DNA from: a candidate division Kazan bacterium GW2011_GWA1_50_15
Lineage (GTDB): Bacteria > Patescibacteriota > Kazan-3B-28
Direction of reading: 5' to 3'
Length of the DNA: 64,000 nt
Assembly (NCBI GenBank): GCA_001029795.1
Contig: CP011216.1
Coordinates: forward strand, 350,767 to 414,766
The stretch's first letter is position 1. Each line of letters opens with the position of its first letter. Below are positions 12,848 through 31,066 of this stretch, in pieces. Under the pieces are notes generated by a model. The model did not search any database and had not been told where the DNA came from. It was given only the letters and a program-made list of their open reading frames with translations. Made by a program: the position numbers and the translations under genes.

Positions 12848-13480
12848 ATGAAAAATAAAATCACTCTCTTTCTGCGCAAGCAAGCCGAAGTCAATCGCCA
12901 AGCGTTGGTCTTGGGCGCGGTTTTGTTTTTCACTGGGTTAATGTCTACCGGCATCGTGAGCATGGTGCGAGCCGCCACAGACAACACCAATGTTTCCTTA
13001 AATGTAGCCGCTGGTGCGCTTTCCGTTACTGCTCCCGCCCAGCTGAACTTCAACCAAGGTACCTCGACTCCGGGTGGCACCGCTATTATGAACACTGGTA
13101 CGGGCAATATTATCGAAACGAACGACCCGCGAGGTACTGGAGCGGGTTGGACACTGAGCGGATATTACAACAACATCTTTGAGAATGCCGATAAGAGCGT
13201 TAACTTGAAAATAAATGACACCGGTTCCGTCCTGCGAGCGCTGTGGAAGCCTAACGATATGACCATCGAAAATAATACTGGTGTTTCTGGCGATGTCCAA
13301 GAGAGTGTTATGAACAACTTCCCCAACATTGGTTCTGGCAACAAGTTGCCCATGGCGGTGGCCGCTTCTGGTAACGGGCAAGGTACTTTCAACTATGTTA
13401 ACTTGCAGTTCAACTACAACGTTTCGACCGAAGCCACTCCAGAGGATTACACTACCGAGTTTATCTTCGAGCTTGTCTAA
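12848..13480 (+). CDS. secreted WxL-domain-like surface protein
   Basis: Signal peptide followed by a beta-rich N/T/G-rich body. It has the LxVxAPxQLNF entry motif and DPRGTGAGWTLSGYY, which matches the first WxL-domain motif (D-x-RG-x3-GW-x-L). 210 aa. Confidence 0.55.
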   Translation: MKNKITLFLRKQAEVNRQALVLGAVLFFTGLMSTGIVSMVRAATDNTNVSLNVAAGALSVTAPAQLNFNQGTSTPGGTAIMNTGTGNIIETNDPRGTGAGWTLSGYYNNIFENADKSVNLKINDTGSVLRALWKPNDMTIENNTGVSGDVQESVMNNFPNIGSGNKLPMAVAASGNGQGTFNYVNLQFNYNVSTEATPEDYTTEFIFELV

Positions 13481-13502
13481 CGGATAGTTAAATTTGCATA
13501 AA

Positions 13503-13534
13503 AAAACGGCGAGCCGATTAGCTCGCTGTTTTTA
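13503..13534 (+). terminator. rho-independent terminator
   Basis: GCGAGC-cgatta-GCTCGC followed by TGTTTTT. Confidence 0.55.
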
Positions 13535-13597
13535 AGTTTACCAGCTATACACCTCGGACATAGAGTGGTCTCGTCGCTCGTGATAGTATAAACTTGT

Positions 13598-15157
13598 ATG
13601 TCTCGTCACCCAAAACCAGAATCAACTCGGTGGTCAGCCCCATTCATCTGGGCCTGGCCTCATTTTCGGATGAGCATTGTGGAGTGGCTATTGATTCTGC
13701 CCCTACTGGCCCTAAGTGCTAGACCACTCGTTGACCCCGACTTTGGCTGGCACCTGCGCTCCGGGATGGACCTGCTGAAAAATCTGTCTGTCCCCCGGTT
13801 GGACCCGTATTCGTACACCGCTCCCCACTGGCCGTGGGTTAACCATGAATGGTTGAGCGACGGGATGGCGGCCTTCGTCTACAACATCGGAGGCCCGTTC
13901 GTCCTGATTGCTCTCTTTGCCCTAACCGTCAGCGGGGCTTTCTTGTTGGCGGCGTCTCTCGGCAAACTGGAGCTAAAATACAAACTGCTGGCCAGCGTGA
14001 TGGCCGGGTTGGCCGCCTTACCCATCCTAGGAGTGCGGATGCAGATGCTCACCCTGCTGGGAATGGCTTTGGTGCTGTGGGCGCTTTATCGTTTCCGCAA
14101 TAAAGAAATAAAAAATCTTTGGTGGCTGATACCGGTGTTCTGGCTGTGGACCAATCTGCACGGAGGATTCCTGATGGGGTTAGTTATCTTGGCGGTGTTC
14201 TTTGTGGCTGAAATCATTAAATATACCAGCGAGCGGGTTTGGCCAAAATTTTATCGGCGTCTGCATATCGCCGAAGTTGGTTTTTCGCTCCCCCAATTGC
14301 GTCATTTGATCTGGGTGGGGTTGGGTTCGGGACTAGTAACGCTCATTAACCCTTACGGCTGGGGGCTGTACTACGATTTCTACAAACTATTTTCCACGCC
14401 TTTTGCTACTGAAAGCATCGCCGAGTGGCAGCCGGTTATCCTAAGCAATATTGGCGCTCAGAACTACACCATATATATATCGGTGCTACTCTTGCTCCTG
14501 CTTTTAACCTACCGCAAGGTGGAACCGACCCGCTGGCTATTGATGGGAGTGTTCTTCTATCTTTCACTCCTGTATTGGCGGAACTTGCCGTTCTTTATGA
14601 TCGTTAGCGTGGGATTTTTGGCCGAGACCATCTATCAACATACTCATCTGGTTTTTGATGGTATGGTGCGTAACCGCTACACCCTATTGGTAATCACAGC
14701 GGTCGTAGCCAGCATGGTCGCTCAGTGGATATCGGATGTCATCCCCAAAACAGCTAATCTAGACGCGACCTTCGCGGCTGGCGGATACCCCATCAACGCA
14801 GTCAACTGGGCCAAGACCAACCCCGATAAGCTCGGGACTAAAATGTTCAATGAGTATGGCCACGGTGGCTTCCTCGTGTGGCAGTTCCCCGAACAAAAGG
14901 TGTTCATCGATGGCCGAATGCCTTATTGGAGAACGGACAATGACCGGTTAGTTTTTTATGATGAGCAATATATTTTGAACGCTCGCCCGGGGGCTATCGA
15001 GATGATGCAACAAGAGTACGGCGTGGACTGGGTGTTCATTCGGGCTGGCCTGCCATTGGACTGGGCATTAGATGGACAGGCAGACACTTGGGAAAAAGTT
15101 TACTACGATCGCTACGAGGTAATTTATCGCAAGAAGCCGGCAAATGCCGTACAATAA
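13598..15157 (+). CDS. polytopic membrane protein, putative GT-C-type (YfhO/ArnT-like) glycosyltransferase
   Basis: 519 aa with at least 10 predicted TM helices, a DPDFGWH acidic motif in the first extracytoplasmic loop and a roughly 150-aa C-terminal soluble domain. Confidence 0.35.
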   Translation: MSRHPKPESTRWSAPFIWAWPHFRMSIVEWLLILPLLALSARPLVDPDFGWHLRSGMDLLKNLSVPRLDPYSYTAPHWPWVNHEWLSDGMAAFVYNIGGPFVLIALFALTVSGAFLLAASLGKLELKYKLLASVMAGLAALPILGVRMQMLTLLGMALVLWALYRFRNKEIKNLWWLIPVFWLWTNLHGGFLMGLVILAVFFVAEIIKYTSERVWPKFYRRLHIAEVGFSLPQLRHLIWVGLGSGLVTLINPYGWGLYYDFYKLFSTPFATESIAEWQPVILSNIGAQNYTIYISVLLLLLLLTYRKVEPTRWLLMGVFFYLSLLYWRNLPFFMIVSVGFLAETIYQHTHLVFDGMVRNRYTLLVITAVVASMVAQWISDVIPKTANLDATFAAGGYPINAVNWAKTNPDKLGTKMFNEYGHGGFLVWQFPEQKVFIDGRMPYWRTDNDRLVFYDEQYILNARPGAIEMMQQEYGVDWVFIRAGLPLDWALDGQADTWEKVYYDRYEVIYRKKPANAVQ

Positions 15158-15172
15158 GGTTTGTAACAGGAC

Positions 15173-16573
15173 ATGACTGTCAAAACAAAATTTTTTAGTG
15201 GGGGGTTACTGGGGATTATTCTGCTCACTTCTTTGTCGACTCCGGTGGTGGCCTTAGAAGCCGGCGGAGCGGGTATCGCCCCGGCTAATCCCCGGCCTGA
15301 CGAGCCCCTGTCCTCTAGTTGGTTTATCTATGAAGTTAATCCCGGGGATGTATTAGAAGACGATGTCTGGGTACTCAACACTTCGGATAAACCGCTCAAG
15401 ATCAGTATCGACGCGGTCGATGCTATGTCGTTGGGCGGCGGCGGCTTTGGCTTGTTAGATAGATTCCAACCCAATCCCAATCTGGGTGACTGGGTGACAT
15501 TAGAGGCCAGAGAGCTCGAAGTGGCGCCCAAATCTAAAACCAAAGTGCATTTCAAGATTACCGTTCCGGCCGACCCGGAGGTGGGCGACCATATCGGCGG
15601 ACTGGTAGTGATGAAAATGGATAGTGCGCCTGACGCGGTCAGTAAATCGGGCGGAGCGACCGTCAATATTCGGACACGAGTAGGGGCCCGAATCTATCTG
15701 ACCGTCCTAGGGGACATTCATCGTGGCTGGAAAATTTTAGGGAAATCGTTCTTTGGCCGGGGCGATAAGATGGTACTGCGTTTCAAAGTAGCCAACTCCG
15801 GTAATGTCCGAGCTCGCTTCCAGGGTGATGTGCGGATTTATGGTTTGTTTGGCCTGTACGACAAGTGGCCTGACTTAGATGTTGGCGAAATCTGGCCCGG
15901 CAAAACTAACCTTCAAGAGATAGTTTGGCCCGGAAAACCTCGACCAATCTTTGGGCCGTATTTGATGATAGCCACCATCAAAGACACCTATACGCCCATA
16001 TTGGAAACTAGCACTATCCCACCCGCTCCGAAGCCAGTAACGGTCTGGGCGATTACTTTCTTTATCCCTTATCTGCAAAGCTTGATTTTACTGTTCCTGG
16101 TATTCATCGTTTGGTTCATCATCCAATTGCGCCGCTGGCGGCGGATGGTACGGCTGGCCCGCACCGAAGTGGTGGCATACAAGCTCAAAAAAGGCGACCA
16201 TTTGATGGACATCGCCGCCAAGTATGACATCAACTGGAAGTTCCTGGCTCAATTAAATGACATTAAGCCACCATATAGTTTGCACGGGTTGACTACCGTT
16301 TATGTCCCGGACGCTAGGGGGGCTCGGCGGAATATCCCTCTGCCCCGCTTCTGGGGCCCGCTATTTGCTTCGCTCACTCGTTGGCTAAAGTGGTTTAAGA
16401 CAGCTAAGCCATATCAGGTGATCGTGGTGGAAAAAGGCGATACTAAAAAGGTAATCGAGAACTTTACGGGGCTAACCTGGGCTGAAATTCTCCGCTATAA
16501 CAAGTTCCCGGCTACCACTAAGCCCAAAATTGGGCTAGAGATGAAGATCCCAGCGAAACGTAGAAGAAGATAA
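15173..16573 (+). CDS. DUF916/DUF3324-type cell-surface protein with a membrane anchor and two C-terminal LysM domains
   Basis: After the signal peptide, SWFIYEVNPGDVLEDDVWVLNTSDKPLKISIDA matches the DUF916 core (YFDLxVxPGQ ... NxSDKPxxV). A 30-aa hydrophobic segment is followed by RRWRR, then two LysM-like units (YKLKKGDHLMDIAAKYDINWKFLAQLN and VIVVEKGDTKKVIENFTGLTWAEILRYN). Confidence 0.6.
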   Translation: MTVKTKFFSGGLLGIILLTSLSTPVVALEAGGAGIAPANPRPDEPLSSSWFIYEVNPGDVLEDDVWVLNTSDKPLKISIDAVDAMSLGGGGFGLLDRFQPNPNLGDWVTLEARELEVAPKSKTKVHFKITVPADPEVGDHIGGLVVMKMDSAPDAVSKSGGATVNIRTRVGARIYLTVLGDIHRGWKILGKSFFGRGDKMVLRFKVANSGNVRARFQGDVRIYGLFGLYDKWPDLDVGEIWPGKTNLQEIVWPGKPRPIFGPYLMIATIKDTYTPILETSTIPPAPKPVTVWAITFFIPYLQSLILLFLVFIVWFIIQLRRWRRMVRLARTEVVAYKLKKGDHLMDIAAKYDINWKFLAQLNDIKPPYSLHGLTTVYVPDARGARRNIPLPRFWGPLFASLTRWLKWFKTAKPYQVIVVEKGDTKKVIENFTGLTWAEILRYNKFPATTKPKIGLEMKIPAKRRRR

Positions 16574-16593
16574 CAACGTTAAGCCGGGGTAGA

Positions 16594-16625
16594 GAAAAAC
16601 CTGCTTTCAGAGCAGGTTTTTCTTA
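16594..16625 (+). terminator. rho-independent terminator
   Basis: AAAACCTGCT-ttcag-AGCAGGTTTT. Confidence 0.65.
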
Positions 16626-16660
16626 TGCCCCAATTCGGCCCATCTTCCTCCTATGGGCTA

Positions 16661-16689
16661 TTGACATATACCACAAAATATGATATAAT
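16661..16689 (+). promoter_or_regulatory. consensus sigma70 promoter with extended -10
   Basis: TTGACA-17 nt-TGaTATAAT; the AAGGAGG downstream at 16713 has no start codon at the proper spacing. Confidence 0.6.
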
Positions 16690-16760
16690 GGAATGATAGC
16701 CGAAGTGAAACCAAGGAGGACATAAACTCAACTTATTAACCAAGAAAAATCAAAAATAAA

Positions 16761-17447
16761 ATGTTCCATCAGTACCGGCTTGCTCCGGAGCCACTCCAAG
16801 TAGCCAGACATCGGCAGGGGGTGCGGAATGTCCGATGGCAGTTGCGCCACCAGGCGGCGATGCATCGTCAGATGCTCGTTTTGGGCATTGCCTTGTTCGC
16901 GACCGGCACGATGCTCATGGGTATCCCCCAGTTCACTCATGCCGATCCCACCGCCGATACGAATATGGCTCTCAATGTTACCTCTGGTGCTTTGAGCTTA
17001 GACAATGCACCCACCCAGTTAAACTTCACTGCCAGCTCTCCAGGTACCACCACTACTGCCAACACCGACGACGACGGAGTGATTAGTAATGATACCCGAG
17101 GTTCCCAGGCCGGTTGGGATGTGACTGGGTATATCCTCAATAATTTCTACCGCGCGTCCGCTCCCAGCACCCAGATGGATATCATTACGCGTCTGCGCTG
17201 GTTTGCTAACGCGGCCACCATCGCCAATATTACCGGCGCAGACGGTGAGGCAGTTCAGGGCGCCAACGCCAACTTCAACTATGTGGATGAGGCGGGCAAT
17301 TCACTGACCCTAATGAGCGATTCTGGTACTGGTGAAAATGGCGCTGGCGCCTTTAATCTGACCAACCTCAAATTTAACTACGACATCCCTCCGGGTGCCA
17401 CACCGGCCAGCGACTACAAGACCACTCTGCGACTAACCATCGCTTAA
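16761..17447 (+). CDS. secreted WxL-domain-like surface protein (paralog of 12848..13480)
   Basis: Same architecture as the first one, with NDTRGSQAGWDVTGY (GW-x-V variant of the motif) and the matching C-terminal Y-K-T-T-L-R-L strand. The start is uncertain; the signal peptide is the MHRQMLVLGIALFATGT segment. Confidence 0.5.
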   Translation: MFHQYRLAPEPLQVARHRQGVRNVRWQLRHQAAMHRQMLVLGIALFATGTMLMGIPQFTHADPTADTNMALNVTSGALSLDNAPTQLNFTASSPGTTTTANTDDDGVISNDTRGSQAGWDVTGYILNNFYRASAPSTQMDIITRLRWFANAATIANITGADGEAVQGANANFNYVDEAGNSLTLMSDSGTGENGAGAFNLTNLKFNYDIPPGATPASDYKTTLRLTIA

Positions 17448-17510
17448 TGTCACAAGTCCGGCTACTTTGATAGCGGTGCGGGTGGAGTTCGGCCTCGCTT
17501 TTAAAGTACA

Positions 17511-18938
17511 ATGGATAGCGTGGGGAACAAACATCCGCAAAATCATATACAACGCGTCATTGGCCTGATTGGCCTACTTTTGGTTTTGGGCAGTGGGACA
17601 AACACCTCTCCTACCGGCGCCGCCTCCACCGGCAGTATCGGTGTCGTCCCGGCTTTTCCCGACCCTGCCATTCAGTTGTCTAAAAGTTGGTTTTTATATG
17701 AGGTTGATCCGGGGGCGACGATCGAGGACACGGCTCGAATAACTAATCGGGGTGAGAGCGAGATGCGTATCAATCTCGAGGCGCTGGATGCATTTATGAC
17801 CCCGGACGGGTCTTTCGCGTTGGCCGGCGCAACCAATGAAAATCAAGATATTGGCACTTGGGTGGAGTTGGAAACCGGAGAAGTGACCGTTCCGGCCGGA
17901 CAGGCCAAGCTGGTAAAATTTAAAATTACTGTACCTCAAGATGCCGAGGTGGGTGACCACATTGGCGGGCTGGCTGTGCAAAAAATGACCGATGAGCCGG
18001 ACATCACCTTAAAAAGCGGTGGCACCCAGCTGGGTATTGTTACGCGGGCCGGGGCGCGCATCTATCTGACCGTCAAAGGCGACATCCAGCGTAGTCTGCG
18101 TTTGACTGGCCGTTCGCTAGTCAGCCGAAACGACAAAATGGTTCTTCGCTTGCGTTGGGATAACCGTGGCAATGTCCGAGCGACTCCAGAACTGGTCGAG
18201 GGACGCATCTGGGGTATCTTTGGTCTGTACGACCGGGTGGAGAATACCGACTTGGGCGAGATATTCCCCCACAAAAGCACGATCAAAGAGACCGTCTGGC
18301 CCGGCAAGAACCGGCCGCTGTTCGGTCCGTTTTTGGCCCGGCTCACAATTCAGGATACATTTGTGGGCCTTAACCCCGCCAGCCCACTGCCTGCCACCCA
18401 GCCGATGACGGTCTGGCTGTTCGTCTTCTTTGTTCCCTACCTTCAGCTACTGGTTATTTTGGCGGTTCTCTTTCTACTCTGGTGCGCCTGGCAGTTCCGC
18501 CGCTGGCAGTATTTAATCCAACTAGCCGGATGCCCGGTAGTGGCCTATCGCGTCAAGAGGAGCGACCATCTCGTGGGTGTGGCCGAGCGATATGGTCTGA
18601 ACTGGAAACTGCTGGCCCGGCTGAATAATCTGAAGCCACCATATAGCTTGCATAATGTGGCGAATCTCTATCTCCCAGATGCTCGGGGCCGTAGGCGGCC
18701 AGCGGAGGTGCCAAACTTTTTCCGATACCTTATTGGCCCGCTAACTAATTTCATCAACCGCGGGAAATCGCATTATACTATTGTTATAGAGCGGGGTGAT
18801 ACTGCCAAAACGGTCACAAAGTTCACGCATATGCCTTGGGCTGAAATATTAGCTTATAATCACCTGAAGATCTCTGCTCGCCCAAAAGTAGGGATGGAGC
18901 TGAAAGTCCCCCGGCGACAGCGGAAGCGCTTCCGCTAG
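17511..18938 (+). CDS. DUF916/DUF3324-type cell-surface protein with a membrane anchor and two LysM domains (paralog of 15173..16573)
   Basis: SWFLYEVDPGATIEDTARITNRGESEMRINLEA DUF916 core, the same TM segment followed by RRWQ, then two LysM-like units (YRVKRSDHLVGVAERYGLNWKLLARLN and IVIERGDTAKTVTKFTHMPWAEILAYN). Confidence 0.6.
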   Translation: MDSVGNKHPQNHIQRVIGLIGLLLVLGSGTNTSPTGAASTGSIGVVPAFPDPAIQLSKSWFLYEVDPGATIEDTARITNRGESEMRINLEALDAFMTPDGSFALAGATNENQDIGTWVELETGEVTVPAGQAKLVKFKITVPQDAEVGDHIGGLAVQKMTDEPDITLKSGGTQLGIVTRAGARIYLTVKGDIQRSLRLTGRSLVSRNDKMVLRLRWDNRGNVRATPELVEGRIWGIFGLYDRVENTDLGEIFPHKSTIKETVWPGKNRPLFGPFLARLTIQDTFVGLNPASPLPATQPMTVWLFVFFVPYLQLLVILAVLFLLWCAWQFRRWQYLIQLAGCPVVAYRVKRSDHLVGVAERYGLNWKLLARLNNLKPPYSLHNVANLYLPDARGRRRPAEVPNFFRYLIGPLTNFINRGKSHYTIVIERGDTAKTVTKFTHMPWAEILAYNHLKISARPKVGMELKVPRRQRKRFR

Positions 18939-19107: not shown

Positions 19108-21009
19108 CTAAGGGAACCTTATGAGAAGTGCTGAACTGACGCTCGTAAACTCATCCTCAACCCCAACTGGAGTATTCTCGATGCCGTTCGGAATATCCAC
19201 CGTCCCAGTTGGAATGGCTAGAATCTCGGCAGGAACGGTTTCAGCACCGCTGGGTGTGTTACCCACTACTGCATCGAGGGTGGAGAATTGACCGTAGGCA
19301 TCACTGGCTCTGCCAACCAAATAAACCTGGCCGTCTGGGGTAGACATAATGCCGAGCGCTTGGCTGCCCCATTCGCCATACCAAATCTGATGCGACAACA
19401 TGTTTCCCAGCTGCGAATACGTGGAGAGAGATATGCTACCCCCCACGTTGCCAGCGACTAAAACATTACCACCGCTTTCTATGGTCACCCCGTGTGCGTA
19501 GTCGTCACCTGCCATACCCCATGTCCTCTGCCAAACCAAATCACCAGACGGCGAATATTTCACGAGAAATGCTTCATTCTCGTAGTAATTTCTACCAAAG
19601 CTGGTAGTGTATCCTACTGCGTAGATATCTCCGCTGGGGTCAACTGTGACTGCGGTTGCCAAATCACTGATGCTACCGCCCCATGTCTTTTGCCACAGGA
19701 AATCGCCGGAGGGCGAGCACACAACCACAAATGCATCATCTTGGCCGGCCCCAAAACTCCATGTACGACCGACCACAACAATGCGATTGTTAGCGTCAAC
19801 CGCGATGCCGAACGCCCTATCATTACCGGCTCCACCCCATATGCGTTGCCAAAGCAGGTCGCCTGCCGGAGAAATTCTCACTAAAAACGCATTCTCATCG
19901 TCTGACCCTAAAACACGTGTGACGCCGGCTATGTAGATGGACCCTGATTCATCCAACGCGATGGCGTACCCCTCGTCTCGGCTATTGTTGTTACTCCACA
20001 TCCTCTGCCAAAGCAAATCGCCTGATGGTGAGTATTTGAGAATTACTACGTTGACATCACCACCGATAACGCAGCGCCCTACTACATATATATTCCCCTC
20101 TGTGTCGATTGCAATGTCACCTCCTTCATCAGCAGATGGGGTACCCCATGTTTTTACCCAAAGTAGCTGGCCATCAGACGAGTAGTTTAGCACTAGGACA
20201 TCAGAGCCACCGGCTCCAAAGCTGGACGTCCCGCCAGTTGTGCAGATATTGCCATTTATACCAACTGCAACCGCCCCGGCTCCGTCGGACAACGGCCCTC
20301 CCCATGTGTGAGCCCATGTTGGAGCAGTAATCATTGACGACTGTGTCCCAACTGCATTTTCGTCATCGGTGATACGAAGAAGCGTTGTGTAGGTACCTAC
20401 CGAAGTGTAGGTGTGGACCATTTCACCCTGAGTGCCGGTAAAGTCTAGGAAGATGCCATCACCCAAATCCCACTCCCATTTGACGATGGAACCGTCAGGG
20501 TCGTAAGAACTAGCGGCTGAAAAAGTTACTTTCAATGGAGTCGAACCGGATACCGGACCAACATTGGCAATGGCAATTGGATTGGCATTCAACCCATCAG
20601 CCAGAGTGATCTGGATGTGAGCTATGTCTTTCTTGCCTTCACTGTCCGTTACTCTTAAATGAGCGGTATAGACACCGGCTACTGTATAGGTATGCCAAGC
20701 ATCTCCCTCAGTTTCAGTATAGTCATGCCAACCACCTTGACCTTCCTCTTCATCGGCAAAGTTCCACTCCCAAGAGATAATGCTATCTCCCTCTGGGTCA
20801 TAGGAACCACCATCCATGAAGTGAACCGTCAAGGGCACTCCCCCCGAGGTGGGGGTAGCCGCTGGAACGGCAATGGGTTTGCCATTGCCGCCTTGGATGT
20901 GGCGGGTAGGAGCTGAAGCTGCCGGCTCATCCGGAACGGTCTGACGCTGGGTCTTGGAGCAAGCTCCCAGAACCAACAGACATACCAACGCAACCAATAT
21001 CTTCTTCAT
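19108..21009 (-). CDS. lipoprotein with two PKD domains and SBBP-type beta-propeller repeats
   Basis: An AAGGAGG SD sits 7 nt before MKKILVALVCLLVLGAC (lipobox LGAC). There are two PKD-like units (WEWNF..GDG.., WEWDLGDG) and then about 8 repeats of the GDLLWQ(R/K)TWGG SBBP motif. Confidence 0.6.
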   Translation of the reverse strand: MKKILVALVCLLVLGACSKTQRQTVPDEPAASAPTRHIQGGNGKPIAVPAATPTSGGVPLTVHFMDGGSYDPEGDSIISWEWNFADEEEGQGGWHDYTETEGDAWHTYTVAGVYTAHLRVTDSEGKKDIAHIQITLADGLNANPIAIANVGPVSGSTPLKVTFSAASSYDPDGSIVKWEWDLGDGIFLDFTGTQGEMVHTYTSVGTYTTLLRITDDENAVGTQSSMITAPTWAHTWGGPLSDGAGAVAVGINGNICTTGGTSSFGAGGSDVLVLNYSSDGQLLWVKTWGTPSADEGGDIAIDTEGNIYVVGRCVIGGDVNVVILKYSPSGDLLWQRMWSNNNSRDEGYAIALDESGSIYIAGVTRVLGSDDENAFLVRISPAGDLLWQRIWGGAGNDRAFGIAVDANNRIVVVGRTWSFGAGQDDAFVVVCSPSGDFLWQKTWGGSISDLATAVTVDPSGDIYAVGYTTSFGRNYYENEAFLVKYSPSGDLVWQRTWGMAGDDYAHGVTIESGGNVLVAGNVGGSISLSTYSQLGNMLSHQIWYGEWGSQALGIMSTPDGQVYLVGRASDAYGQFSTLDAVVGNTPSGAETVPAEILAIPTGTVDIPNGIENTPVGVEDEFTSVSSALLIRFP

Positions 21010-21182
21010 GTTAAAGAACCTCCTTGGGGGATTCCCCCTAGAGAACAAAACACCTAGCAGATGAGATTAGCTAGGCGAGGAGAGTATATTTTATACCCAT
21101 CAGTTCGTCAAGAGTCGAATTATTTATGTTAACTATCCCATCAAGCGACAACAATAGATAGATTTTGGTACTATAATTGTAG

Positions 21183-22772
21183 ATGATATCCAATATACGA
21201 TTGATCGATCGAAACCAGTCCTCTCATCATTGGCGATGGTTAGCTTGGTGGTTAATAATTGTGGTGATTATGGTTGCTGCTGTATTTCCGCCCCGCCCCG
21301 CTCGAGCGGCTGACCCAAATATGGTTATCTTTATGGATTGGGCGGACTTGGGTGCCACTCCGATCGGCTGGACAGTCGTATCTGATAGTGGTGACACCTT
21401 TTACAATAAGTATGTTATGGCGAGTAACACTTATGAGTCGACTGGCGGGAACCCTACTCACACTCACACCCTCGCTATCGTTGATAGCGGCGCCACCAAT
21501 GACTCCGGCAACAACATCGACAAGGGCGGTACCGGCACTACCGTTTCCGAGCAGTCCCACACTCACGCCGCGTTAGCCAGCTCCTCCATCACTCCAGACA
21601 ACAACTTGCCAAATTATCGCTCTTTGGCTGTCTTGGAATACACTACTGGCGGCATCCCCTCCACTCTGCCAGACAACGCCATTGTCATGCGAGAAGATAC
21701 TACTCTGGTTGGTAACTGGGAGCTCTATAGCGCCAACGACGCCCGTTTAGTGCGTGGTAGTAACTCTACTGCCAATGGTGGCGATAATAATCCCACCCAC
21801 ACCGTGGCTTCCGGTCTGGGAGCCGGCGGTACCAGCCGAGTCGCCGGTGCTGGCGGTACTGCCCGCGCCACCGTCACCCACACCCACGCCGCCGGCAGTG
21901 GCGTGGCAAGTAATGGGCCTGACATTATTCCGCCATATAATGAATTGGTCTTTGTCCGTGCCACTGCCGCCATCACCTCCCTCCCCGACCAGATGATAGC
22001 CGGATTCTCCGGTACCGCTTTTGATTCTGGTGATTGGACAGTAGTATCTGCATCTAGTGGCACTGCCGAACAGACCAAATACTATAGCCGATTTTTGATG
22101 GGCGATAGTTCCGGTACTTTGACTATTGATGGCGGTGGCCTCACCCATAGCCATGCCAATGTGGACATTAGCACTGGCACACCGACCGGGTCGGCCAACT
22201 ACGATGTTGCTCCGTCCAACGGCACCGCCGCCACTACCGGCCATGTCCATACGGGAGTGACTATCTCGCTGGAAGCCAATGTGAACCATGTTCCCGAATA
22301 CGCTACACTAGTGCTGGCGCAATATACCCAACCCGCCTCTTTGAGTATTAACTCTGAATCTACTCTTGTAGACTTAGGCGAGAGCAACCCAGGAGTGACC
22401 ACAGCTGACTACACTTTTAGCACTAGTGAGGAGATCATTGTGGATTCCACTGATTATGCTACTTGGAGCTTGACTGTCGATGCGACAGATTTTATTTCCG
22501 GCATTAAGATTATTGCGGATGACAGGTTTGATCTAGCCACTAACGGTAATCTTGGCACAGAACCAACCCTAATAGCCGTCGTCGGGTCAGGAACCGTGAC
22601 TGAAGTGAATAATGGTTATGCTAATTTCAATTCAACTCAATCTCTTGCTAGTCTGTCTGGCGGATCAGGATCTATTACGGCAACGGTCAGGCCTACGATT
22701 CGGGTCAGAATCCCAGCAGATGCCGAGCTTGCCAATGACTACCTATCCTTGGTGGACTTCACGGTTGTATAG
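21183..22772 (+). CDS. secreted Gly/Thr/His-rich triple-repeat protein (His-box repeats; phage tail-fibre-like or adhesin-like?)
   Basis: N-terminal signal anchor followed by three roughly 85-aa repeats, each with (N)PTHTH ... SHTHA / THTHA / HSHAN...GHVHT and ending (I/L/V)P(N/P/E)Y..L. The C-terminal roughly 150 aa is non-repetitive. Confidence 0.5.
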   Translation: MISNIRLIDRNQSSHHWRWLAWWLIIVVIMVAAVFPPRPARAADPNMVIFMDWADLGATPIGWTVVSDSGDTFYNKYVMASNTYESTGGNPTHTHTLAIVDSGATNDSGNNIDKGGTGTTVSEQSHTHAALASSSITPDNNLPNYRSLAVLEYTTGGIPSTLPDNAIVMREDTTLVGNWELYSANDARLVRGSNSTANGGDNNPTHTVASGLGAGGTSRVAGAGGTARATVTHTHAAGSGVASNGPDIIPPYNELVFVRATAAITSLPDQMIAGFSGTAFDSGDWTVVSASSGTAEQTKYYSRFLMGDSSGTLTIDGGGLTHSHANVDISTGTPTGSANYDVAPSNGTAATTGHVHTGVTISLEANVNHVPEYATLVLAQYTQPASLSINSESTLVDLGESNPGVTTADYTFSTSEEIIVDSTDYATWSLTVDATDFISGIKIIADDRFDLATNGNLGTEPTLIAVVGSGTVTEVNNGYANFNSTQSLASLSGGSGSITATVRPTIRVRIPADAELANDYLSLVDFTVV

Positions 22773-22815
22773 GCCTGCCAATATCCAGTATCTGGCCAAC
22801 CTCCCCCTAGTGCGC

Positions 22816-22879
22816 ATCCCCTCCGGACGCCGAGCTGGTCTCTGACTATCTCTCGCTCTTGACCTTCACCGTCGTCTAA
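22816..22879 (+). pseudogene. decayed orphan copy of the 3' end of the 21183..22772 gene
   Basis: About 70% nucleotide identity to 22710..22772. It opens after a TAG and encodes CASPPDAELVSDYLSLLTFTVV* versus the native IPADAELANDYLSLVDFTVV*. Confidence 0.5.
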
Positions 22880-22884
22880 CCCCA

Positions 22885-23035
22885 CCGCTGTCTCTAACCC
22901 CTCCACTGCCTCATCTGCCTCATATGCCCCCTCGTCTGTTCTGCGTCTATTGCCTCATCTGTGTCATCTGCCTCGTCTGTATCATCTGTTCTGCATCTTC
23001 TGTTCTGCATCTATGGTTATCCCCAATGGGTTTAC
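22885..23035. repeat. degenerate ~9-bp pyrimidine-rich tandem repeat (YYTCRTCTG)n
   Basis: At least 11 units such as CCTCATCTG, TGTCATCTG, CCTCGTCTG and TATCATCTG. They are responsible for the artefactual Cys-rich N-terminal extension of ORF 22924. Confidence 0.6.
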
Positions 23036-23085
23036 TCTCAAACGGCCGTTTGAGAGTAAACCCAGAGAGAGTATACTTTAGTCAT

Positions 23086-23610
23086 ATGCGGGGAAGACGA
23101 TGGGAACTCACCAAGGATATTTTACTCACTGTCGCGGCGACGGGAGGTTTTATGCTAATTGCCATGGCTGCCCCCGGCGCATTGCGCATCTTCGCTCCGC
23201 TAATCAAGAAATACCGACGAGGTGCGTTTACCCCCGCTCATTTCAGACACAAGCTACACTGCTTGCACGATCAGGGGTTGATTAACATTAGTGAAACGGG
23301 CGGCAAGACGCGTATATCTCTAACTAAAGCTGGTCGGACTCGGATATTGGAGTACGAAGTCGACACTATGGAGATACCCAAACGGGTGCCCTGGGACGGC
23401 CAGTGGCGATTTGTTATCTTTGATATCCCAGAAAAGAAAAAACTGGCCCGCAATGTGTTCAGGGAAAAACTGCGCGCTCTGGGATTTGTAAAGGTCCAAC
23501 AAAGCGTCTGGCGTCATAAATACCCCTGCCAATCTCAAATCGAGTTCCTGGTCCGCCTCTACCAAATCCATCGGTATGTCGACTTGGTGGAGGGTAAACA
23601 AACCCTTTAA
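23086..23610 (+). CDS. winged-helix plus Cas2-like-fold protein (PaaX-like architecture); orphan, no CRISPR array nearby
   Basis: The ATG at 23086 lies 8 nt after a TATACT -10 element. The N-terminus has a hydrophobic helix and a wHTH-like segment (HKLHCLHDQGLINISETGGKTRISLTKAGRTRI). The C-terminus reads FVIFDIPEKKKLARNVFREKLRALGFVKVQQSVW, matching the beta-alpha-beta core pattern of Cas2/VapD-fold proteins. Confidence 0.4.
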   Translation: MRGRRWELTKDILLTVAATGGFMLIAMAAPGALRIFAPLIKKYRRGAFTPAHFRHKLHCLHDQGLINISETGGKTRISLTKAGRTRILEYEVDTMEIPKRVPWDGQWRFVIFDIPEKKKLARNVFREKLRALGFVKVQQSVWRHKYPCQSQIEFLVRLYQIHRYVDLVEGKQTL

Positions 23611-23614: not shown

Positions 23615-23655
23615 GTGCCGTGAGGGAAAACGGCCGTTTTTCTTCACGGCACAGA
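23615..23655 (+). terminator. rho-independent terminator (nested palindrome)
   Basis: GTGCCGTGA ... AAAACGGCCGTTTT ... TCACGGCAC. Confidence 0.5.
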
Positions 23656-27111: not shown

Positions 27112-27232
27112 GTACCCGCGACGACCTACTTTTGCAGGACCTTGCGGTCCAACTATCATCGGCCCTGGAGGGCTTGACTGCTCTGTTCGGGATGGGAAGA
27201 GGTATAACCCCTCCGGTATCATCACGGGGACT
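27112..27232 (-). rRNA. rrf: 5S ribosomal RNA
   Basis: The reverse complement reads CCCATCCCGAACAGAGCAGTCAAGCCCTCCAGGGCCGATGATAGTTGG...CTGCAAAAGTAGGTCGTCGCGGG, which is collinear with E. coli 5S loop A/B/C motifs (CCGAAC...GCCGATGGTAGT...AGAGTAGG). Helix I forms between the ends. Confidence 0.75.
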
Positions 27233-27970: not shown

Positions 27971-28747
27971 TTTGTTACTTTGCAAACCACATCCAATACT
28001 GATGTTGCTCTGTGGTGACCATACCTTTCGGTAGGATTCTACATATCGCTATGCAGTTCGGACTATATCTTTCCTGCCGTGTGGCAGGACTTGGCATATA
28101 GTCTCTGAGGATTCTAAATTGGCAAGAATTTTGTCTTTGTCTAGCTTGCGATACCTCCCTCCCCCATTCATCGAGAAGGCCTTAATAATAATTTTCTTGA
28201 GGCCATTCTTTTCAAGATGGTGGTTGGTTCGCATAGCGGAGACGATTTCAGCAAACTTTTGAAAATCAGTTTGTTTGGAAGACAAGAGGGGATAGTGTCG
28301 AAAAAACGGGATTACTTTAGTCAGCAAATCGTGACGATCCCTAACTACCAGCACCTGACTTTTGTCAGTTAGGCTGGTCCGGTGATTATCCTTGATGTAG
28401 CCACAACCCAGCAACTGCTGGATCTCGCGCAACATCGAAGCCCGTTCCTGGTTCTGGCTGACATGAAATTCGGGAATCACCTGATACCCAAGCTTCACAT
28501 TCGGGCTTTTTTGGATAGCCACATGAAAGCTACCTTCTCCATCAACATATCCCGCAACATACCAACTTAGTCTTTCCTGCTGATTGTCTGCACTCATACA
28601 TTTTCACTTTGCCAATCTTGATCTCATTATAAAATATAGAGACCATATTGGCAATAGTAGTATAGAGATACTCAGAGTTTCCAGCATTTAGCCAAGTTTA
28701 TAGACAGCGCAGTCATACATTATTCGCTCCTAGAGCGAATAATTACC
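27971..28747 (-). mobile_element. group I intron in 23S domain V/VI, at or next to the I-CreI-type homing region after GAGACAGT
   Basis: Exon sequence is continuous with E. coli up to GTCGTGAGACAGT and resumes at TTGTCGGTCTCTATCTG. The intervening roughly 777 nt carry a LAGLIDADG ORF. Boundaries are +/-15 nt. Confidence 0.6.
28049..28597 (-). CDS. LAGLIDADG homing endonuclease (single-motif, I-CreI-like size)
   Basis: WYVAGYVDGEGSFHV is the LAGLIDADG motif; 182 aa; same orientation as the rRNA, inside the intron. Confidence 0.8.
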   Translation of the reverse strand: MSADNQQERLSWYVAGYVDGEGSFHVAIQKSPNVKLGYQVIPEFHVSQNQERASMLREIQQLLGCGYIKDNHRTSLTDKSQVLVVRDRHDLLTKVIPFFRHYPLLSSKQTDFQKFAEIVSAMRTNHHLEKNGLKKIIIKAFSMNGGGRYRKLDKDKILANLESSETICQVLPHGRKDIVRTA

Positions 28748-28748
28748 C

Positions 28749-28814
<66 letters not shown>

Positions 28815-28828
28815 AACCTGCTCCAGCT

Positions 28829-28859
<31 letters not shown>

Positions 28860-28891
28860 AAACCGCTTCGTCGATATGGACTCTTGGAAGC

Positions 28892-28923
<32 letters not shown>

Positions 28924-29382
28924 TCGTTGAGCTTCGGCGCACCCATGTGCAACCGTCGGATCACTATATCCTGCTTTCGCATCTGCTTGACTTGTAGGTC
29001 TCGCAGTTAAGCTCCCATATACTATTGCGCTATCGTCCCGATTTCCATCCGGGACTAGGGAACCTTTGAACGCCTCCGTTACTTTTTGGGAGGCAACCGC
29101 CCCAGTTAAACTACCCACCAAACGCTGTCCCCCTGCCAGATAATGGCTAGAGGTTAGGATTAAGAAATAGTCAGGGTGGTATTTCACCGTTGACTCCACC
29201 CCGACTAGCGTCGGGGCTTCACAGTCTCCCACCTATCCTACACAAACCAGCTCCTAACCCAGCGTCAAGTTGTAGTAAAGCTCCACGGGGTCTTTTTGTC
29301 TTGCTGCGGATAGCCGGCATCTTCACCGGCAATGTAGTTTCGCCGAGTCCCTCTTTGAGACAGTCATCAGACCGTTACGCTA

Positions 29383-29457
<75 letters not shown>

Positions 29458-29479
29458 AGGGCTTAGTGTTGGAGCTTCT

Positions 29480-29541
29480 CCCGCCAATTTAAAGTTCGTA
29501 CTCGTGTGCTGCTACGCGAATACCAGCTCTAAATTGGCGGG
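29480..29541 (-). mobile_element. TIR-bounded IVS-like insertion A in 23S (domain IV helix tip)
   Basis: 62 nt bounded by CCCGCCAATTTAAAG ... CTCTAAATTGGCGGG. It replaces the GCGCAAGC loop between GGGGTTA and GAAGCTC. Confidence 0.6.
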
Positions 29542-30067
29542 ATAACCCCTCTACGTGACCTTCTGGCACCGGGCAAGCGTCAGCCCCTATACCTCCTCTT
29601 TCGAGTTAGCAGAGACCTGTGTTTTTGCTAAACAGTCGCCTGATGTCTTTAGCTGCGGCCCCCCACTTTCTACGCACCAACTTGCGTTGCTTAGCGCATG
29701 AGCGCTATGCGCAGAAAGTGGGGGGCAGTCCTTATTCCGAAGTTACGGACGCTATTTTGCCGAGTTCCTTAAAGAGGGTTCTCTCGTGCGCCTTAGGCTA
29801 CTCGCCCTATCCACCTGTGTCGGTTTAGGTACGGATGCTCAATGTTCTCGCTAGAGGTTTTTCTGGTCAACTTAGATCAGCCAAATCGCCTTGTCCCGAA
29901 AGACTCAACTTTCCATTACAACTCGCGGTTCTCCGATTGCTCGGACGTTCCCCGGATTTGCCAAAGGAACCCACTTGTTGCTTAGACTGAGAAACCTATC
30001 TCAGCTCGGCCTACCAACTTGCGTCACCCCATTGCTAGACGTGCAGACCAGCAGAACCAGCATCCAT

Positions 30068-30169
30068 CCCGCCAATTTAACGCTTGTACCTATGGTTATC
30101 TCTCGACCAATTACATATAAACGTAAAACGATTAAGAAACTACCAAGATACCAGCCCTAAATTGGCGGG
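30068..30169 (-). mobile_element. TIR-bounded IVS-like insertion B in 23S (domain III variable helix)
   Basis: 102 nt bounded by CCCGCCAATTTAA ... CCCTAAATTGGCGGG. Confidence 0.6.
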
Positions 30170-30537
30170 ACGATCATCTGGCCTACCAGTTTGCTTGTCT
30201 TGGGCGAACATTAAGCAGTACAGGAATATTAACCTGTTGTCCATCGCCTACGCCTTGCGGCCTCGGCTTAGGACCGACTAACCCTGGGTCGAAAACCGTC
30301 GCCCAGGAAACCTCGGATAAATCGGCGTTAGAGTTTTTCACTCTAATCTCGCTACTCGTGCCAACATTCTCACTTCTGCGCGCTCCATCCAACCTCGCGG
30401 TTAAACTTCACTGCTGCGCAGAACGCTCCCCTACCGCTCTGCCTTACGGCAGAGCCCGCATCTTCGGTATTCAGCTTAGCCCCGTTAAATTTTCGGCGCA
30501 GACACACATCGACCAGTGAGCTGTTACGCTTTCTTTG

Positions 30538-30568
<31 letters not shown>

Positions 30569-31066
30569 TTGTTCATGTGTCTCCACTTCCTTTCACACTT
30601 AGCTGAATTTAGGGACCTTAGATGGCGGTCTGGGCTGTTTCCCTTTCGACATACGACGCTTAGCCGCCGTTTTCTGACTCCCGGGCTTAACCGGACAGTA
30701 TTCGGAGTTTAATTGGACGCGGTACGGTAAACCGCCCGAATCCATTCAGTAGCTCTACCACTGCCGGGAACGCTCTGAGGCTATACCTAAATATATTTCG
30801 GGGAGAACCAGCTATCTCCGGGTTCGATTGGAATTTCTCCGCTAACCACAGTTCATCCCCCCACTTTTCAACGTAGGTGGGTGCGGCCCTCCACTGCTTT
30901 TTACGGCAGCTTCAGCCTGACCATGGTTAGGTCACCCGGTTTCGGGTCTAATCCCTGCTACTTCAATCGCGCTATTCGCACTTGCTTTCGCTTCGGCTGC
31001 GAACGATAAGTTCTTAGCCTTGCAACAGAAATTAACTCGTTGGCTCATTCTACAAAAGGCACGCCG

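What the first reader, a model, noticed from the sequence alone, without database searches (positions are those of the whole stretch)
21183..22879. Secreted protein with three His-box repeats and a decayed orphan copy of its own C-terminus 100 nt downstream
Seen: three roughly 85-aa repeats each containing two HxH(x)H boxes (PTHTHT / SHTHA; PTHTV / THTHA; THSHA / GHVHT) and ending (I/L/V)P.Y..L. This is reminiscent of metal-ion-binding His boxes in phage long-tail-fibre tips and beta-helical fibres. Downstream, 22816..22879 is a roughly 70%-identical duplicate of the gene's last 63 nt, opening right after a TAG and encoding ...PPDAELVSDYLSLLTFTVV*.

Inference: this is a remnant of C-terminal cassette exchange or of a deleted tandem paralog, as seen for variable tail-fibre/adhesin tips and polymorphic-toxin orphan modules. 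Together with the tandem-repeat tract that follows, this is a recombination-prone spot.
Basis: partly seen in the sequence, partly recalled or inferred. Interest (0 to 1): 0.55.

Follow-up and report, generated by a model that had tools for sequence, protein, structure and literature searches.

The report
Surface protein gene with fossil tail
A tiny symbiotic (CPR, Kazan-group) bacterium encodes a secreted surface protein whose head is three fused copies of a phage tail-fibre-like histidine-box unit; the short look-alike of the gene's end just downstream is a fixed, non-coding relic of a related gene, not an active switching system.

Summary
Both observations are real. ORF 21183-22772 (529 aa) has a signal peptide, three homologous units of about 110 aa (not 85) carrying 11 conserved His in HxH boxes, and a 145-aa C-terminal domain.

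**His-box module.** It has no Pfam or NCBIfam match. A profile search finds 475 cluster representatives, and units always occur in threes or sixes. One unit aligns end to end with small phage "tail collar fibre" proteins. The AlphaFold model matches phage phiAsp2 Pas28/Pas29. I infer a single-chain pseudo-trimer of a phage-fibre metal-binding head; metal binding is untested.

**C-terminal domain.** It is WxL-like, and the gene lies in a cluster with WxLIP+LysM proteins, so this is a cell-wall-displayed protein and not a prophage fibre.

**Orphan (22817-22879).**
- It is significant (z about 10) and identical in 7 of 8 assemblies, with one SNP in the eighth.
- It has sharp boundaries.
- It differs from the gene mostly at synonymous sites (pS 0.73, pN 0.19).

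It is therefore a relic of a diverged homologue's 3' end, not a decayed self-copy. Relatives do have tandem paralogues. I found no alternative 3' ends, other cassettes or repeat-number variation, so "recombination-prone" is not supported for the present population.

The parts
21183..22772 (+). Gene for the 529-aa secreted His-box / WxL-like surface protein. The same protein is deposited as a hypothetical protein of candidate division Kazan bacterium, VE98_C0001G0383.
   Evidence: ORF; homologues; identity to deposited proteins.
21183..21308 (+). Predicted Sec signal peptide (aa 1-42), with cleavage after A40-R41-A42.
   Evidence: Read from the sequence; PAxAADPDM is conserved in homologues. 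Inference only; no predictor was run.
21312..21662 (+). Tail-collar-like unit 1 (aa 44-160), with boxes H93-T-H95 and H126-T-H128. It ends with NLPNYRSL.
21663..21986 (+). Tail-collar-like unit 2 (aa 161-268). Its first box is degenerate (P-T-H206); the second is H233-T-H235. It ends with IPPYNEL.
21987..22337 (+). Tail-collar-like unit 3 (aa 269-385), with boxes H322-S-H324 and H354-V-H356. It ends with VPEYATL.
22338..22769 (+). C-terminal WxL-like domain (aa 386-529). It carries a W-S-L motif and the terminal strand DYLSLVDFTVV.
   Evidence: hhalign against six small WxL-like proteins: 95% probability, E 4e-8, reversed control E 0.44. tblastn to the protein at 16761-17447: E 0.009.
22773..22816 (.). 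Spacer of 44 nt with no detectable homology to the gene. It contains the in-frame TAG (22808-22810) that closes the orphan frame upstream.
22817..22879 (+). Orphan 3'-end fragment encoding SPPDAELVSDYLSLLTFTVV*. It is the relic of the last beta-strand and stop codon of a diverged homologue. It has no start codon.
   Evidence: identical in other assemblies.
22875..23012 (.). C/T-rich tandem-repeat tract (18-nt x2, 9-nt CTGCCTCAT x about 9, 14-nt x2.6). It is intergenic and begins inside the orphan's last codons.
   Evidence: An analogous C/T-rich tract occurs in L007.
23027..23064 (.). Perfect 38-nt palindrome with core AAACGGCCGTTT. It overlaps a promoter-like -35 hexamer upstream of the PaaX-like gene.
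23086..23610 (+). PaaX_M (Cas2-like) regulator-like gene. It is present in the window and L007 but absent from the syntenic loci L010 and L017. The longer ORF from 22924 is probably a spurious extension.
23615..23652 (.). Second palindrome with the same AAACGGCCGTTT core (17/19 arm matches), immediately after the PaaX-like stop codon.
12848..13480 (+). Small secreted WxL-like protein (210 aa) of the same cluster. It ends with EDYTTEFIFELV.
   Evidence: Pfam WxL E 4e-4, 20.8 bits, below the cutoff of 25.
15173..16573 (+). WxLIP_PGBD + LysM protein (466 aa).
   Evidence: Pfam 35.2 and 46.5 bits, both above cutoff.
16761..17447 (+). Small WxL-like protein (228 aa). It ends with SDYKTTLRLTIA.
17511..18938 (+). 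WxLIP_PGBD + LysM protein (475 aa).
   Evidence: Pfam 48.9 and 46.8 bits, both above cutoff.

Best explanation
**The gene.** It encodes a Sec-secreted cell-surface protein of a Kazan-group CPR (Patescibacteria) bacterium.
- Its head (aa 44-385) is three fused, homologous tail-collar-like units, each with two HxH boxes.
- I infer that the three units fold around a pseudo-threefold axis. That would stack two axial His clusters (5 and 6 His) that bind a metal ion. This would be a single-chain version of the homotrimeric metal-binding receptor-binding heads of phage fibres (T4 gp12 Zn, gp37 Fe), and it would serve as a ligand-binding or adhesin module.
- Its tail (aa 386-529) is a WxL-like domain. 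I infer that it holds the protein non-covalently on the cell wall together with the WxLIP_PGBD+LysM proteins encoded upstream.

**The orphan.** The 63-nt fragment at 22817-22879 is a non-functional relic of the last beta-strand and stop codon of a diverged homologue of this same WxL-like domain. An old illegitimate recombination left it there. The candidates are:
- deletion of a tandem paralogue;
- displacement of an older 3' end;
- co-transfer with the neighbouring PaaX-like cassette.

The relic is now fixed in the population.

**Shown:** the repeats, His conservation, units in multiples of three, homology to phage tail-collar-type proteins, the WxL-like homology and cluster context, and the orphan's significance, boundaries, substitution pattern and invariance.

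**Inferred:** the pseudo-trimer geometry, metal binding, adhesin role, wall anchoring, and which recombination event occurred.
For: **Repeats**
- Searches show three homologous units.
- His residues are 86-99% conserved over 159 modules.
- The family has 475 representatives at E<=1e-3, and the module is always matched whole.
- Unit counts: 132 proteins have 3 units, 16 have 6, and 3 N-terminally truncated fragments have 2. There are 153 arrays of three units and 5 of six.

**Link to phage proteins**
- The single-unit profile aligns end to end with the 148-aa S-SKS1 'tail collar fiber protein' (38.4 bits) and with Venkman gp50 'tail collar protein' (26.4 bits).
- Those two proteins, and the stand-alone unit P0167, have Pfam Collar as their only hit, and it is sub-threshold.
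- The module HMM hits phiAsp2 Pas28 (69.6 bits) and Pas29 (67.1 bits).
- The module model (pLDDT 79, pTM 0.75) matches Pas28/Pas29 in BFVD at E 4e-15 and 2e-14, with TM 0.58 and 0.54. It also matches a 'Phage tail collar domain containing protein' at E 6e-4.
- HxH motifs of gp37 coordinate Fe ions on the trimer axis (PMC11705849).

**WxL-like tail**
- hhalign gives 95% probability and E 4e-8 end to end, with a reversed control at E 0.44.
- All six small cluster proteins tested have WxL as a sub-threshold Pfam hit (13.7-24 bits); it is the best hit for five of them.
- WxLIP_PGBD+LysM genes lie upstream here and in relatives.

**Orphan**
- z is about 10, and homology is sharply bounded.
- Differences by codon position are 5/3/12 (binomial p = 0.013). 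pS is 0.73 against pN 0.19.
- The orphan is closer to the resident gene (65% nt, 15/21 aa) than any orthologue's 3' end is (43-52% nt).
- Its LTFTVV is closer to the family consensus than the gene's VDFTVV.
- Tandem paralogues exist in relatives.
- The sequence is identical in 8 assemblies apart from one SNP.
Against: **Head**
- Neither the protein nor 21 relatives has a direct Pfam Collar or PHROG match.
- I could not inspect model coordinates, so the His geometry and pseudo-threefold packing are untested.
- The loops between the two boxes of each unit have low confidence.

**Tail**
- The C-terminal domain itself has no Pfam WxL hit.
- Its terminal motif is F-T-V rather than W-x-L.

**Orphan**
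- It covers only 20 codons, so pN/pS has wide error.
- The syntenic loci L007, L010 and L017 have a single gene and no orphan. A former tandem paralogue at this locus is therefore not directly evidenced.
Confidence: 0.6

Rival explanations
1. The orphan is an in-situ tandem duplication of the gene's own last 60 nt or so. The copy has since decayed neutrally while the gene copy stayed under selection.
For: The two copies lie 107 nt apart on the same strand. They share the lineage-specific DAEL..DYLSL signature that no orthologue has. Syntenic loci in relatives have only one gene. A 60% share of third-position differences could also arise from a mixture of constrained and neutral branches.
Against: - pN/pS is about 0.26. 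A neutral orphan branch predicts at least about 0.5. pS is 0.73, near saturation, yet 15/21 residues and the stop position are retained.
- Similarity is about 67% across 60 nt and then drops to background within a few bases on both sides. It does not fade evenly over a duplicated block.
- The orphan keeps the family-consensus LTFTVV where the resident gene has diverged.
Confidence: 0.15
2. The orphan and the repeat tract are parts of an active variation system that alters the protein's C-terminus. Candidate mechanisms are cassette switching, DGR-like mutagenesis, phase variation by repeat slippage, or recoding.
For: A tandem-repeat tract directly follows the orphan. Tail-fibre-like and adhesin genes are classic targets of such systems. 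The flanking PaaX cassette is present in some relatives and absent in others.
Against: - The gene, orphan and repeat copy number are identical in 8 assemblies from different samples; the only change is one SNP.
- The substitutions are of all types, not adenine-specific.
- The orphan is in the +2 frame, preceded by an in-frame TAG, and has no start codon.
- It covers only the last structural strand and no variable ligand-binding part.
- No other cassette lies in the window.
- The repeats are intergenic.
Confidence: 0.03
3. The gene is a prophage or tailocin tail-fibre gene, and the orphan is a leftover of fibre-tip swapping between phages.
For: The units are homologous to phage tail-collar-type proteins and to phiAsp2 Pas28/29.
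Against: - The protein has a signal peptide and a WxL-like C-terminal domain.
- Its neighbours are WxLIP+LysM, PKD/SBBP lipoprotein, PaaX-like, PGA_cap and ComM-like genes. rRNA and tRNA genes are also in the window. No phage structural genes were seen among the ten neighbours scanned.
- Synteny is conserved in three distant CPR genomes.
- The protein has no PHROG hit.
Confidence: 0.03
4. The downstream similarity is chance, or an assembly chimera of two strains.
For: The matching segment is short (60 nt) and the region is repeat-rich. Several Logan contigs end within or just after it.
Against: The alignment score is about 10 SD above shuffles, and tblastn gives E 1e-5. The frame and stop codon are aligned. 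The junctions are identical in 8 assemblies made with different assemblers and samples, and several of those run through the whole region.
Confidence: 0.01

Closest known systems
Phage tail collar domain proteins and the T4 short tail fibre gp12 receptor-binding domain (Pfam PF07484; 'knitted' trimeric metal-binding fold, PDB 1ocy/1h6w)
   Same: - Each unit has the same linear signature: I-x-x-F/W-x...P-x-G-W, then GG-x-x-H-x-H, a second H-x-H, and a terminal N-L-P-x-Y-x-x-L/V.
- The unit profile aligns end to end with small phage proteins annotated as tail collar (fibre) proteins. Their only Pfam hit is a sub-threshold Collar match.
- From my own knowledge, gp12 binds Zn through HxH from three chains on the threefold axis.
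   Different: - Three units are fused in one chain, where phages use three identical chains.
- The protein is bacterial and chromosomal, has a signal peptide, and carries a cell-wall-anchor-like domain.
T4 long tail fibre tip gp37 (PDB 2xgf): HxH 'His boxes' coordinating Fe ions
   Same: Both have repeated, strongly conserved HxH motifs embedded in Gly/Ser/Thr-rich beta structure. In gp37, six His from three chains bind each Fe octahedrally (PMC11705849).
Actinoplanes phage phiAsp2 Pas28 / Pas29 (Pas29 is the putative receptor-recognising protein with HXHY motifs)
   Same: These are the best structural matches (Foldseek E 4e-15 and 2e-14; TM 0.58 and 0.54). They also match at sequence-profile level (about 67-70 bits). 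They contain several of the same units in tandem.
   Different: Identity is 18-19%. They are much larger phage structural proteins, uncharacterised experimentally, with no WxL-like domain and no signal peptide context.
WxL / Csc surface-protein clusters of Enterococcus and Lactobacillus (WxL domain PF13731 with WxLIP/DUF916 partners)
   Same: - The C-terminal domain is homologous to small secreted proteins whose recurrent Pfam hit is WxL.
- Two partner genes score above threshold for WxLIP_PGBD.
- The cluster organisation is conserved in relatives.
   Different: - All WxL hits are below the gathering threshold.
- The C-terminal motif is F-T-V(V) at the very end, not W-x-L.
- The partner proteins carry LysM.
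- The host is a CPR bacterium, not a Firmicute.
- No paper in the searched library links WxL with Patescibacteria.
Orphan C-terminal modules of polymorphic toxin loci (CDI, Rhs) and displaced 3' ends after cassette replacement
   Same: A 3'-terminal fragment of a homologous gene sits just downstream of the intact gene, on the same strand and without a start codon.
   Different: The fragment is only 63 nt and encodes a conserved structural strand, not a variable effector. There is no immunity gene and no upstream homology block for recombination. It is invariant in the population.

Membership tests
Phage tail collar domain (Pfam PF07484 Collar) | Match to the Pfam model at or above the gathering score (24 bits) | tested here: not met
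   No hit at E<=10 for the window protein. None among 21 relatives at E<=1. The intermediates reach only 16-19 bits.
Phage tail collar domain (Pfam PF07484 Collar) | Homology of one unit to proteins annotated as tail collar proteins, covering the P-x-G-W start, the HxH boxes and the NLPPY end | tested here: met
   The pooled unit HMM against the S-SKS1 148-aa protein scores 38.4 bits over hmm 1-108 of 120. Venkman gp50 scores 26.4 bits. BFVD gives a tail-collar-domain protein at E 5.7e-4. The E-values are for targeted searches.
Phage tail collar domain (Pfam PF07484 Collar) | Three units arranged around a threefold axis, with HxH His residues binding a metal on that axis | not testable with these tools
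Indirect support: unit number is always 3 or 6 and the His residues are 86-99% conserved.
gp37-type HxH iron-binding fibre tip | Sequence or fold similarity to PDB 2xgf | tested here: inconclusive
gp37-type HxH iron-binding fibre tip | Conserved HxH motifs | tested here: met
   11 His residues are invariant in the close family and 86-99% conserved over 159 modules.
WxL domain (Pfam PF13731) | Match to the Pfam model at or above the gathering score (25 bits) | tested here: not met
   The C-terminal domain has no WxL hit at E<=1. The small cluster proteins score 13.7-24.0 bits.
WxL domain (Pfam PF13731) | Homology of the C-terminal domain to WxL-type proteins of the same clusters | tested here: met
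   hhalign gives 95% probability and E 4e-8 over 133 columns to the very C-terminus; the reversed control gives E 0.44. tblastn gives E 0.009.
WxL domain (Pfam PF13731) | Gene cluster with WxL-interacting proteins (WxLIP_PGBD, PF06030) | tested here: met
   The proteins at 15173-16573 and 17511-18938 score 35.2 and 48.9 bits (cutoff 27.3). The same association occurs in L001-L005 and L019.
WxL domain (Pfam PF13731) | Two W-x-L motifs, the second near the C-terminus | tested here: inconclusive
   The first motif is present (T-W-S-L-T; G-W-S/T-L in five of the eight aligned family members). The C-terminal position reads F-T-V-V, with the family consensus L-T-F-T-V-V.
WxL domain (Pfam PF13731) | Non-covalent binding to peptidoglycan or the cell wall | not testable with these tools
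   This needs a biochemical experiment.
Orphan modules of polymorphic toxin systems (CDI/Rhs) | The orphan encodes a variable toxin C-terminus followed by a cognate immunity gene, and is preceded by a homology block | tested here: not met
   The orphan is 20 codons of a conserved structural strand. Homology ends sharply at 22817. Downstream lie a repeat tract and a PaaX-like gene.
Diversity-generating retroelement target (VR/TR) | Template and variable repeats differ only at template adenines, with a reverse transcriptase nearby | tested here: not met
   The 20 differences are of many types. None of the ten neighbouring genes scanned, the nearest on either side of the gene, is a reverse transcriptase. 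The rest of the window was not scanned for one.

The most novel reading that the evidence does not exclude
The triple His-box module is a previously undescribed, single-chain pseudo-trimeric form of the phage tail-collar / fibre-tip metal-binding head. It is used widely by CPR bacteria (Kazan, Saccharibacteria), both in WxL-anchored proteins of about 500-700 aa and in giant surface proteins of up to 7,246 aa, as the receptor-binding adhesin for attaching to host cells. On this reading the window also shows a WxL-type wall-display system outside the Firmicutes. The orphan records past exchange of the anchor end.
Probability: 0.3. Interest if true: 0.7.

Novelty: new variant of a known kind. Interest (0 to 1): 0.42.

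Why it matters
CPR bacteria are obligate episymbionts, and their attachment machinery is largely unknown. This work points to a large, unannotated domain family: 475 cluster representatives, no Pfam model, always three or six units, and strictly conserved His boxes. The family is homologous to phage receptor-binding 'tail collar' units, and here it is fused to a WxL-like wall anchor.

If the pseudo-trimer and metal-site model holds, three things follow:
- It gives a concrete candidate adhesin for CPR-host contact.
- It is an example of a homotrimeric phage fold converted into a single chain.
- It gives a reason to build a Pfam or InterPro model.

The orphan fragment matters less. It is a fixed fossil showing that the 3' end of this gene, next to an indel-variable PaaX-like cassette, was once rearranged. 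It does not indicate ongoing variation.

Tried and rejected
- **Family libraries.** Pfam, NCBIfam and PHROGs on the protein gave nothing. Pfam on 8 and then 21 relatives gave nothing recurrent.
- **First structure model.** The whole protein with 8 sequences gave pLDDT 42 and was unusable.
- **PDB profile searches.** The module and single-unit profiles gave only non-significant hits: gp37 at E 1.6, and a phage structural protein 7z47 at E 6.5.
- **Phage collection.** tblastn of the window module against 50,697 phage records found no match.
- **Word-indexed search.** The unit profile returned only 13 short, unannotated proteins.
- **Search for an intact donor.** A degenerate pattern for DYLSLLTFTVV* found 0 hits in metagenome contigs. 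The metagenome scan for close relatives found only homologues at 51-52% identity.
- **Extending the orphan.** I looked for extension upstream or past the stop codon, and for similarity between the 44-nt spacer and the post-orphan tract. Neither exceeded shuffles.
- **Mechanisms considered and rejected.**
  - DGR: the substitutions are not adenine-specific.
  - Stop-codon readthrough or frameshifting: wrong frame, with an intervening TAG.
  - Assembly artefact: 8 assemblies agree.
  - Prophage: the genomic context does not fit.
- **Literature.** Searches for WxL with Patescibacteria, tail collar with Saccharibacteria, and phiAsp2/HXHY found nothing relevant.
Full report
**1. What is there**

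ORF 21183-22772 (+) encodes 529 aa. The window is a CPR-type genome. It has a 23S rRNA gene about 500 nt longer than the model and not next to a 16S gene, plus 5S rRNA, tmRNA and tRNA genes. The identical protein is deposited as a hypothetical protein of a candidate division Kazan (Kazan-3B-28) bacterium, VE98_C0001G0383, on a 602,646-bp contig, and under 'Patescibacteria group bacterium'.

The N-terminus has a basic n-region, a hydrophobic core and A-R-A|A. The cleavage-site region PAxAADPDM is conserved in homologues. I read this as a Sec signal peptide from the sequence; no predictor was run.

**2. The His-box repeats**

The protein contains three homologous units, aa 44-160, 161-268 and 269-385.
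- Pairwise alignments score z = 12.1 (units 1 and 3), 5.5 and 4.4 above shuffles.
- Profiles of the three units, built from 159 modules, match each other at E 7e-23 to 2e-31.
- The period is about 107-121 aa, not 85.

Each unit reads I-x-x-F...P-x-G-W ... GG-x-x-H-x-H ... H-x-H ... (N)-L-P-x-Y-x-x-L/V. Eleven box His residues are invariant among the eight closest homologues and 86-99% conserved across 159 modules. The family consensus has six HxH boxes. The window subfamily has lost the first His of box 2a (P-T-H-T).

**3. Size and shape of the family**

The word-indexed search found only 8 homologues. An exhaustive profile search of 1.84 billion cluster representatives found 475 at E<=1e-3 and 188 at E<=1e-30. 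These include proteins of up to 7,246 aa.
- The module of about 330 aa is always matched as a whole, once or twice per protein.
- Counting single units gives 132 proteins with 3 units, 16 with 6, and 3 with 2. The last three are N-terminally truncated fragments. There are 153 arrays of three units and 5 of six.
- No Pfam, NCBIfam or PHROG model matches the window protein or its relatives.
- Genomes that encode relatives are Kazan and Saccharibacteria MAGs.

**4. What the units are related to**

The first AlphaFold model, of the whole protein with 8 sequences, was poor (pLDDT 42). A model of aa 44-385 with 21 sequences was usable (pLDDT 79, pTM 0.75). Its low-confidence parts are the loops between the two boxes of each unit.

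Searches against solved structures gave little:
- Foldseek found nothing.
- Profile-sequence searches of the PDB gave only a biased, non-significant gp37 hit (E 1.6).

Searches against predicted viral structures were clearer. The model matched phiAsp2 Pas28 and Pas29 (E 4e-15 and 2e-14; TM 0.58 and 0.54) and a 'Phage tail collar domain containing protein' (E 5.7e-4). Pas29 is annotated as a possible receptor-recognising protein with HXHY motifs, similar to a T-even fibre.

The link also holds at sequence level:
- The module HMM scores 69.6 and 67.1 bits on Pas28 and Pas29.
- A Pas28 segment that aligns to the start of a unit finds phage proteins annotated as tail collar proteins.
- The pooled single-unit HMM aligns end to end with the 148-aa S-SKS1 'tail collar fiber protein' (38.4 bits) and with Venkman gp50 (26.4 bits).
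- Those two proteins, and a stand-alone unit P0167 found with the unit profile, have Pfam Collar as their only hit, and it is sub-threshold.

So one unit corresponds to one small phage tail-collar-type protein. Pfam membership as such is not met.

HxH motifs in phage fibre tips bind metal on the trimer axis. For gp37 and Fe this is cited in PMC11705849; for gp12 and Zn it is from my own knowledge. Three fused units, a unit count that is strictly a multiple of three, and invariant His residues make a single-chain pseudo-trimer with two axial His clusters the most economical model. I could not inspect coordinates, so this remains an inference.

**5. The C-terminal domain and the gene cluster**

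Residues 386-529 carry a W-S-L motif and end DYLSLVDFTVV. The family consensus is DYTGTLTFTVV at the very C-terminus.

The window has a cluster upstream:

| Coordinates | Product | Pfam evidence |
|---|---|---|
| 12848-13480 | small secreted protein | WxL, E 4e-4, below cutoff |
| 15173-16573 | 466-aa protein | WxLIP_PGBD + LysM, both above cutoff |
| 16761-17447 | second small protein | WxL, E 0.065 |
| 17511-18938 | 475-aa protein | WxLIP_PGBD + LysM, both above cutoff |

- All six small proteins tested, from four loci, have WxL as a Pfam hit at 13.7-24 bits against a cutoff of 25; it is the best hit for five of them.
- The C-terminal domain profile aligns to these proteins end to end at 95% probability and E 4e-8. 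The reversed control gives E 0.44.
- The association of WxLIP/LysM genes with His-box genes recurs in relatives.

The protein is therefore best read as the large, ligand-binding member of a WxL-type surface-display cluster. The context is housekeeping, not prophage.

**6. The orphan**

*Significance and limits*
- Gene 22713-22772 and 22820-22879 share 40/60 nt at a fixed offset of 107 nt. The score is 22 against 9.2 +/- 1.2 in shuffles.
- Identity falls to background within a few bases on both sides.
- The frame is +2 relative to the gene, is closed upstream by TAG 22808-22810, and has no start codon.

*Substitution pattern*
- Differences fall 5/3/12 on codon positions 1/2/3 (binomial p = 0.013).
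- pS is 0.73 and pN is 0.19. Eleven codons differ only synonymously (the stop codon included) and five change the residue.
- A copy that had decayed neutrally since duplication should give pN/pS of at least about 0.5 and a uniform loss of identity.
- The pattern instead fits two sequences that diverged while both were coding.
- The orphan shares the lineage-specific DAEL..DYLSL signature with the resident gene (65% nt identity). Orthologue 3' ends are only 43-52% identical to the gene.
- The orphan also keeps the consensus LTFTVV that the gene has lost.
- It is therefore the last strand of a diverged close homologue.

*Possible sources*
- Relatives do carry tandem paralogues (L001/L002: P0005 + P0008; L011).
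- The three syntenic loci L007, L010 and L017 have one gene and no orphan.
- The neighbouring PaaX-like gene is present only here and in L007.
- With these data I cannot choose between paralogue deletion, displacement of an older 3' end, and co-transfer of donor flank with the PaaX cassette.

*Population data*
- The gene, orphan and repeat tract are identical in 8 assemblies from different samples, apart from one SNP in the orphan in L006.
- No other cassette is in the window.
- No intact gene with the orphan-type end was found by a degenerate exact-pattern scan.
- No close variants were found in the metagenome scan.
- The site is a fossil, not a currently variable locus.

**7. Verdict**

The more interesting result is the unannotated, CPR-wide, phage-related triple His-box module fused to a WxL-like anchor. 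The orphan is a minor, fixed relic.

Noticed in passing
window 23027-23064 and 23615-23652; L007 about 3818-3855 and 4415-4452: Two palindromic hairpins sharing the core AAACGGCCGTTT bracket the PaaX_M (Cas2-like) gene. The core occurs only twice in the 64 kb (expected 0.35). The first hairpin is a perfect 38-nt palindrome that overlaps a promoter-like -35 hexamer. The same arrangement flanks the PaaX-like gene in L007, a locus whose His-box protein (P0002) is only about 50% identical. The whole gene is absent from the syntenic loci L010 and L017. It could be an operator/terminator pair or the ends of a small mobile cassette.
   Followed up: partly
window 22875-23012; L007 3761-3812: A C/T-rich tandem-repeat tract (18-, 9- and 14-nt units) fills the space between the orphan and the palindrome. 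Its copy number is identical in all assemblies that span it. The orthologous position in L007 is also a C/T-rich tract, but with a different sequence. Its function is unknown.
   Followed up: partly
window 12848-18938: A WxL-type surface-protein cluster sits in a CPR (Kazan) genome: two small WxL-like proteins, two WxLIP_PGBD+LysM proteins and a 519-aa protein that looks hydrophobic and membrane-associated by eye. The library search found no relevant paper linking WxL systems with Patescibacteria.
   Followed up: partly
window 19108-21048 (-): A PKD/SBBP beta-propeller lipoprotein gene lies on the opposite strand, between the WxLIP gene and the His-box gene. In L007, L010 and L017 the WxLIP/LysM gene directly precedes the His-box gene, so this looks like a lineage-specific insertion.
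   Followed up: no
window 28626-32060 (-) and 27113-27229 (-): The 23S rRNA gene spans 3,435 nt against a 2,925-position model, so it carries about 500 nt of insertions. No 16S gene is adjacent, and the 5S gene lies about 1.4 kb away. Short ORFs lie inside the 23S span (28894-29232, 29190-29492).
   Followed up: no
L001 10007-10565, L002 5017-5575, L011 8086-8250: In relatives, the tandem 700-aa paralogues are separated by a DUF559 (Vsr-like endonuclease) ORF. It is flanked by repeated palindromic elements (CCCCTCTTAAGATAAGAGGGG...GGGGAGTTATAA), and similar elements occur in the Kazan RBG_13_50_9 genome. This may be a small mobile element between the paralogues.
   Followed up: no
P0158, P0160, P0162, P0165, P0167: Stand-alone single-unit proteins of 105-210 aa carry 2 to about 8 H-x-H boxes, have phage-fibre-like N-termini and lack a signal peptide. 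They are probably homotrimeric phage counterparts of the fused module.
   Followed up: partly
L003 end (window 22867), L004/L005 end (window 23058): Logan contigs stop inside the orphan or exactly at the centre of the 38-nt palindrome. This suggests the palindrome and the repeats break short-read assemblies at this point.
   Followed up: no
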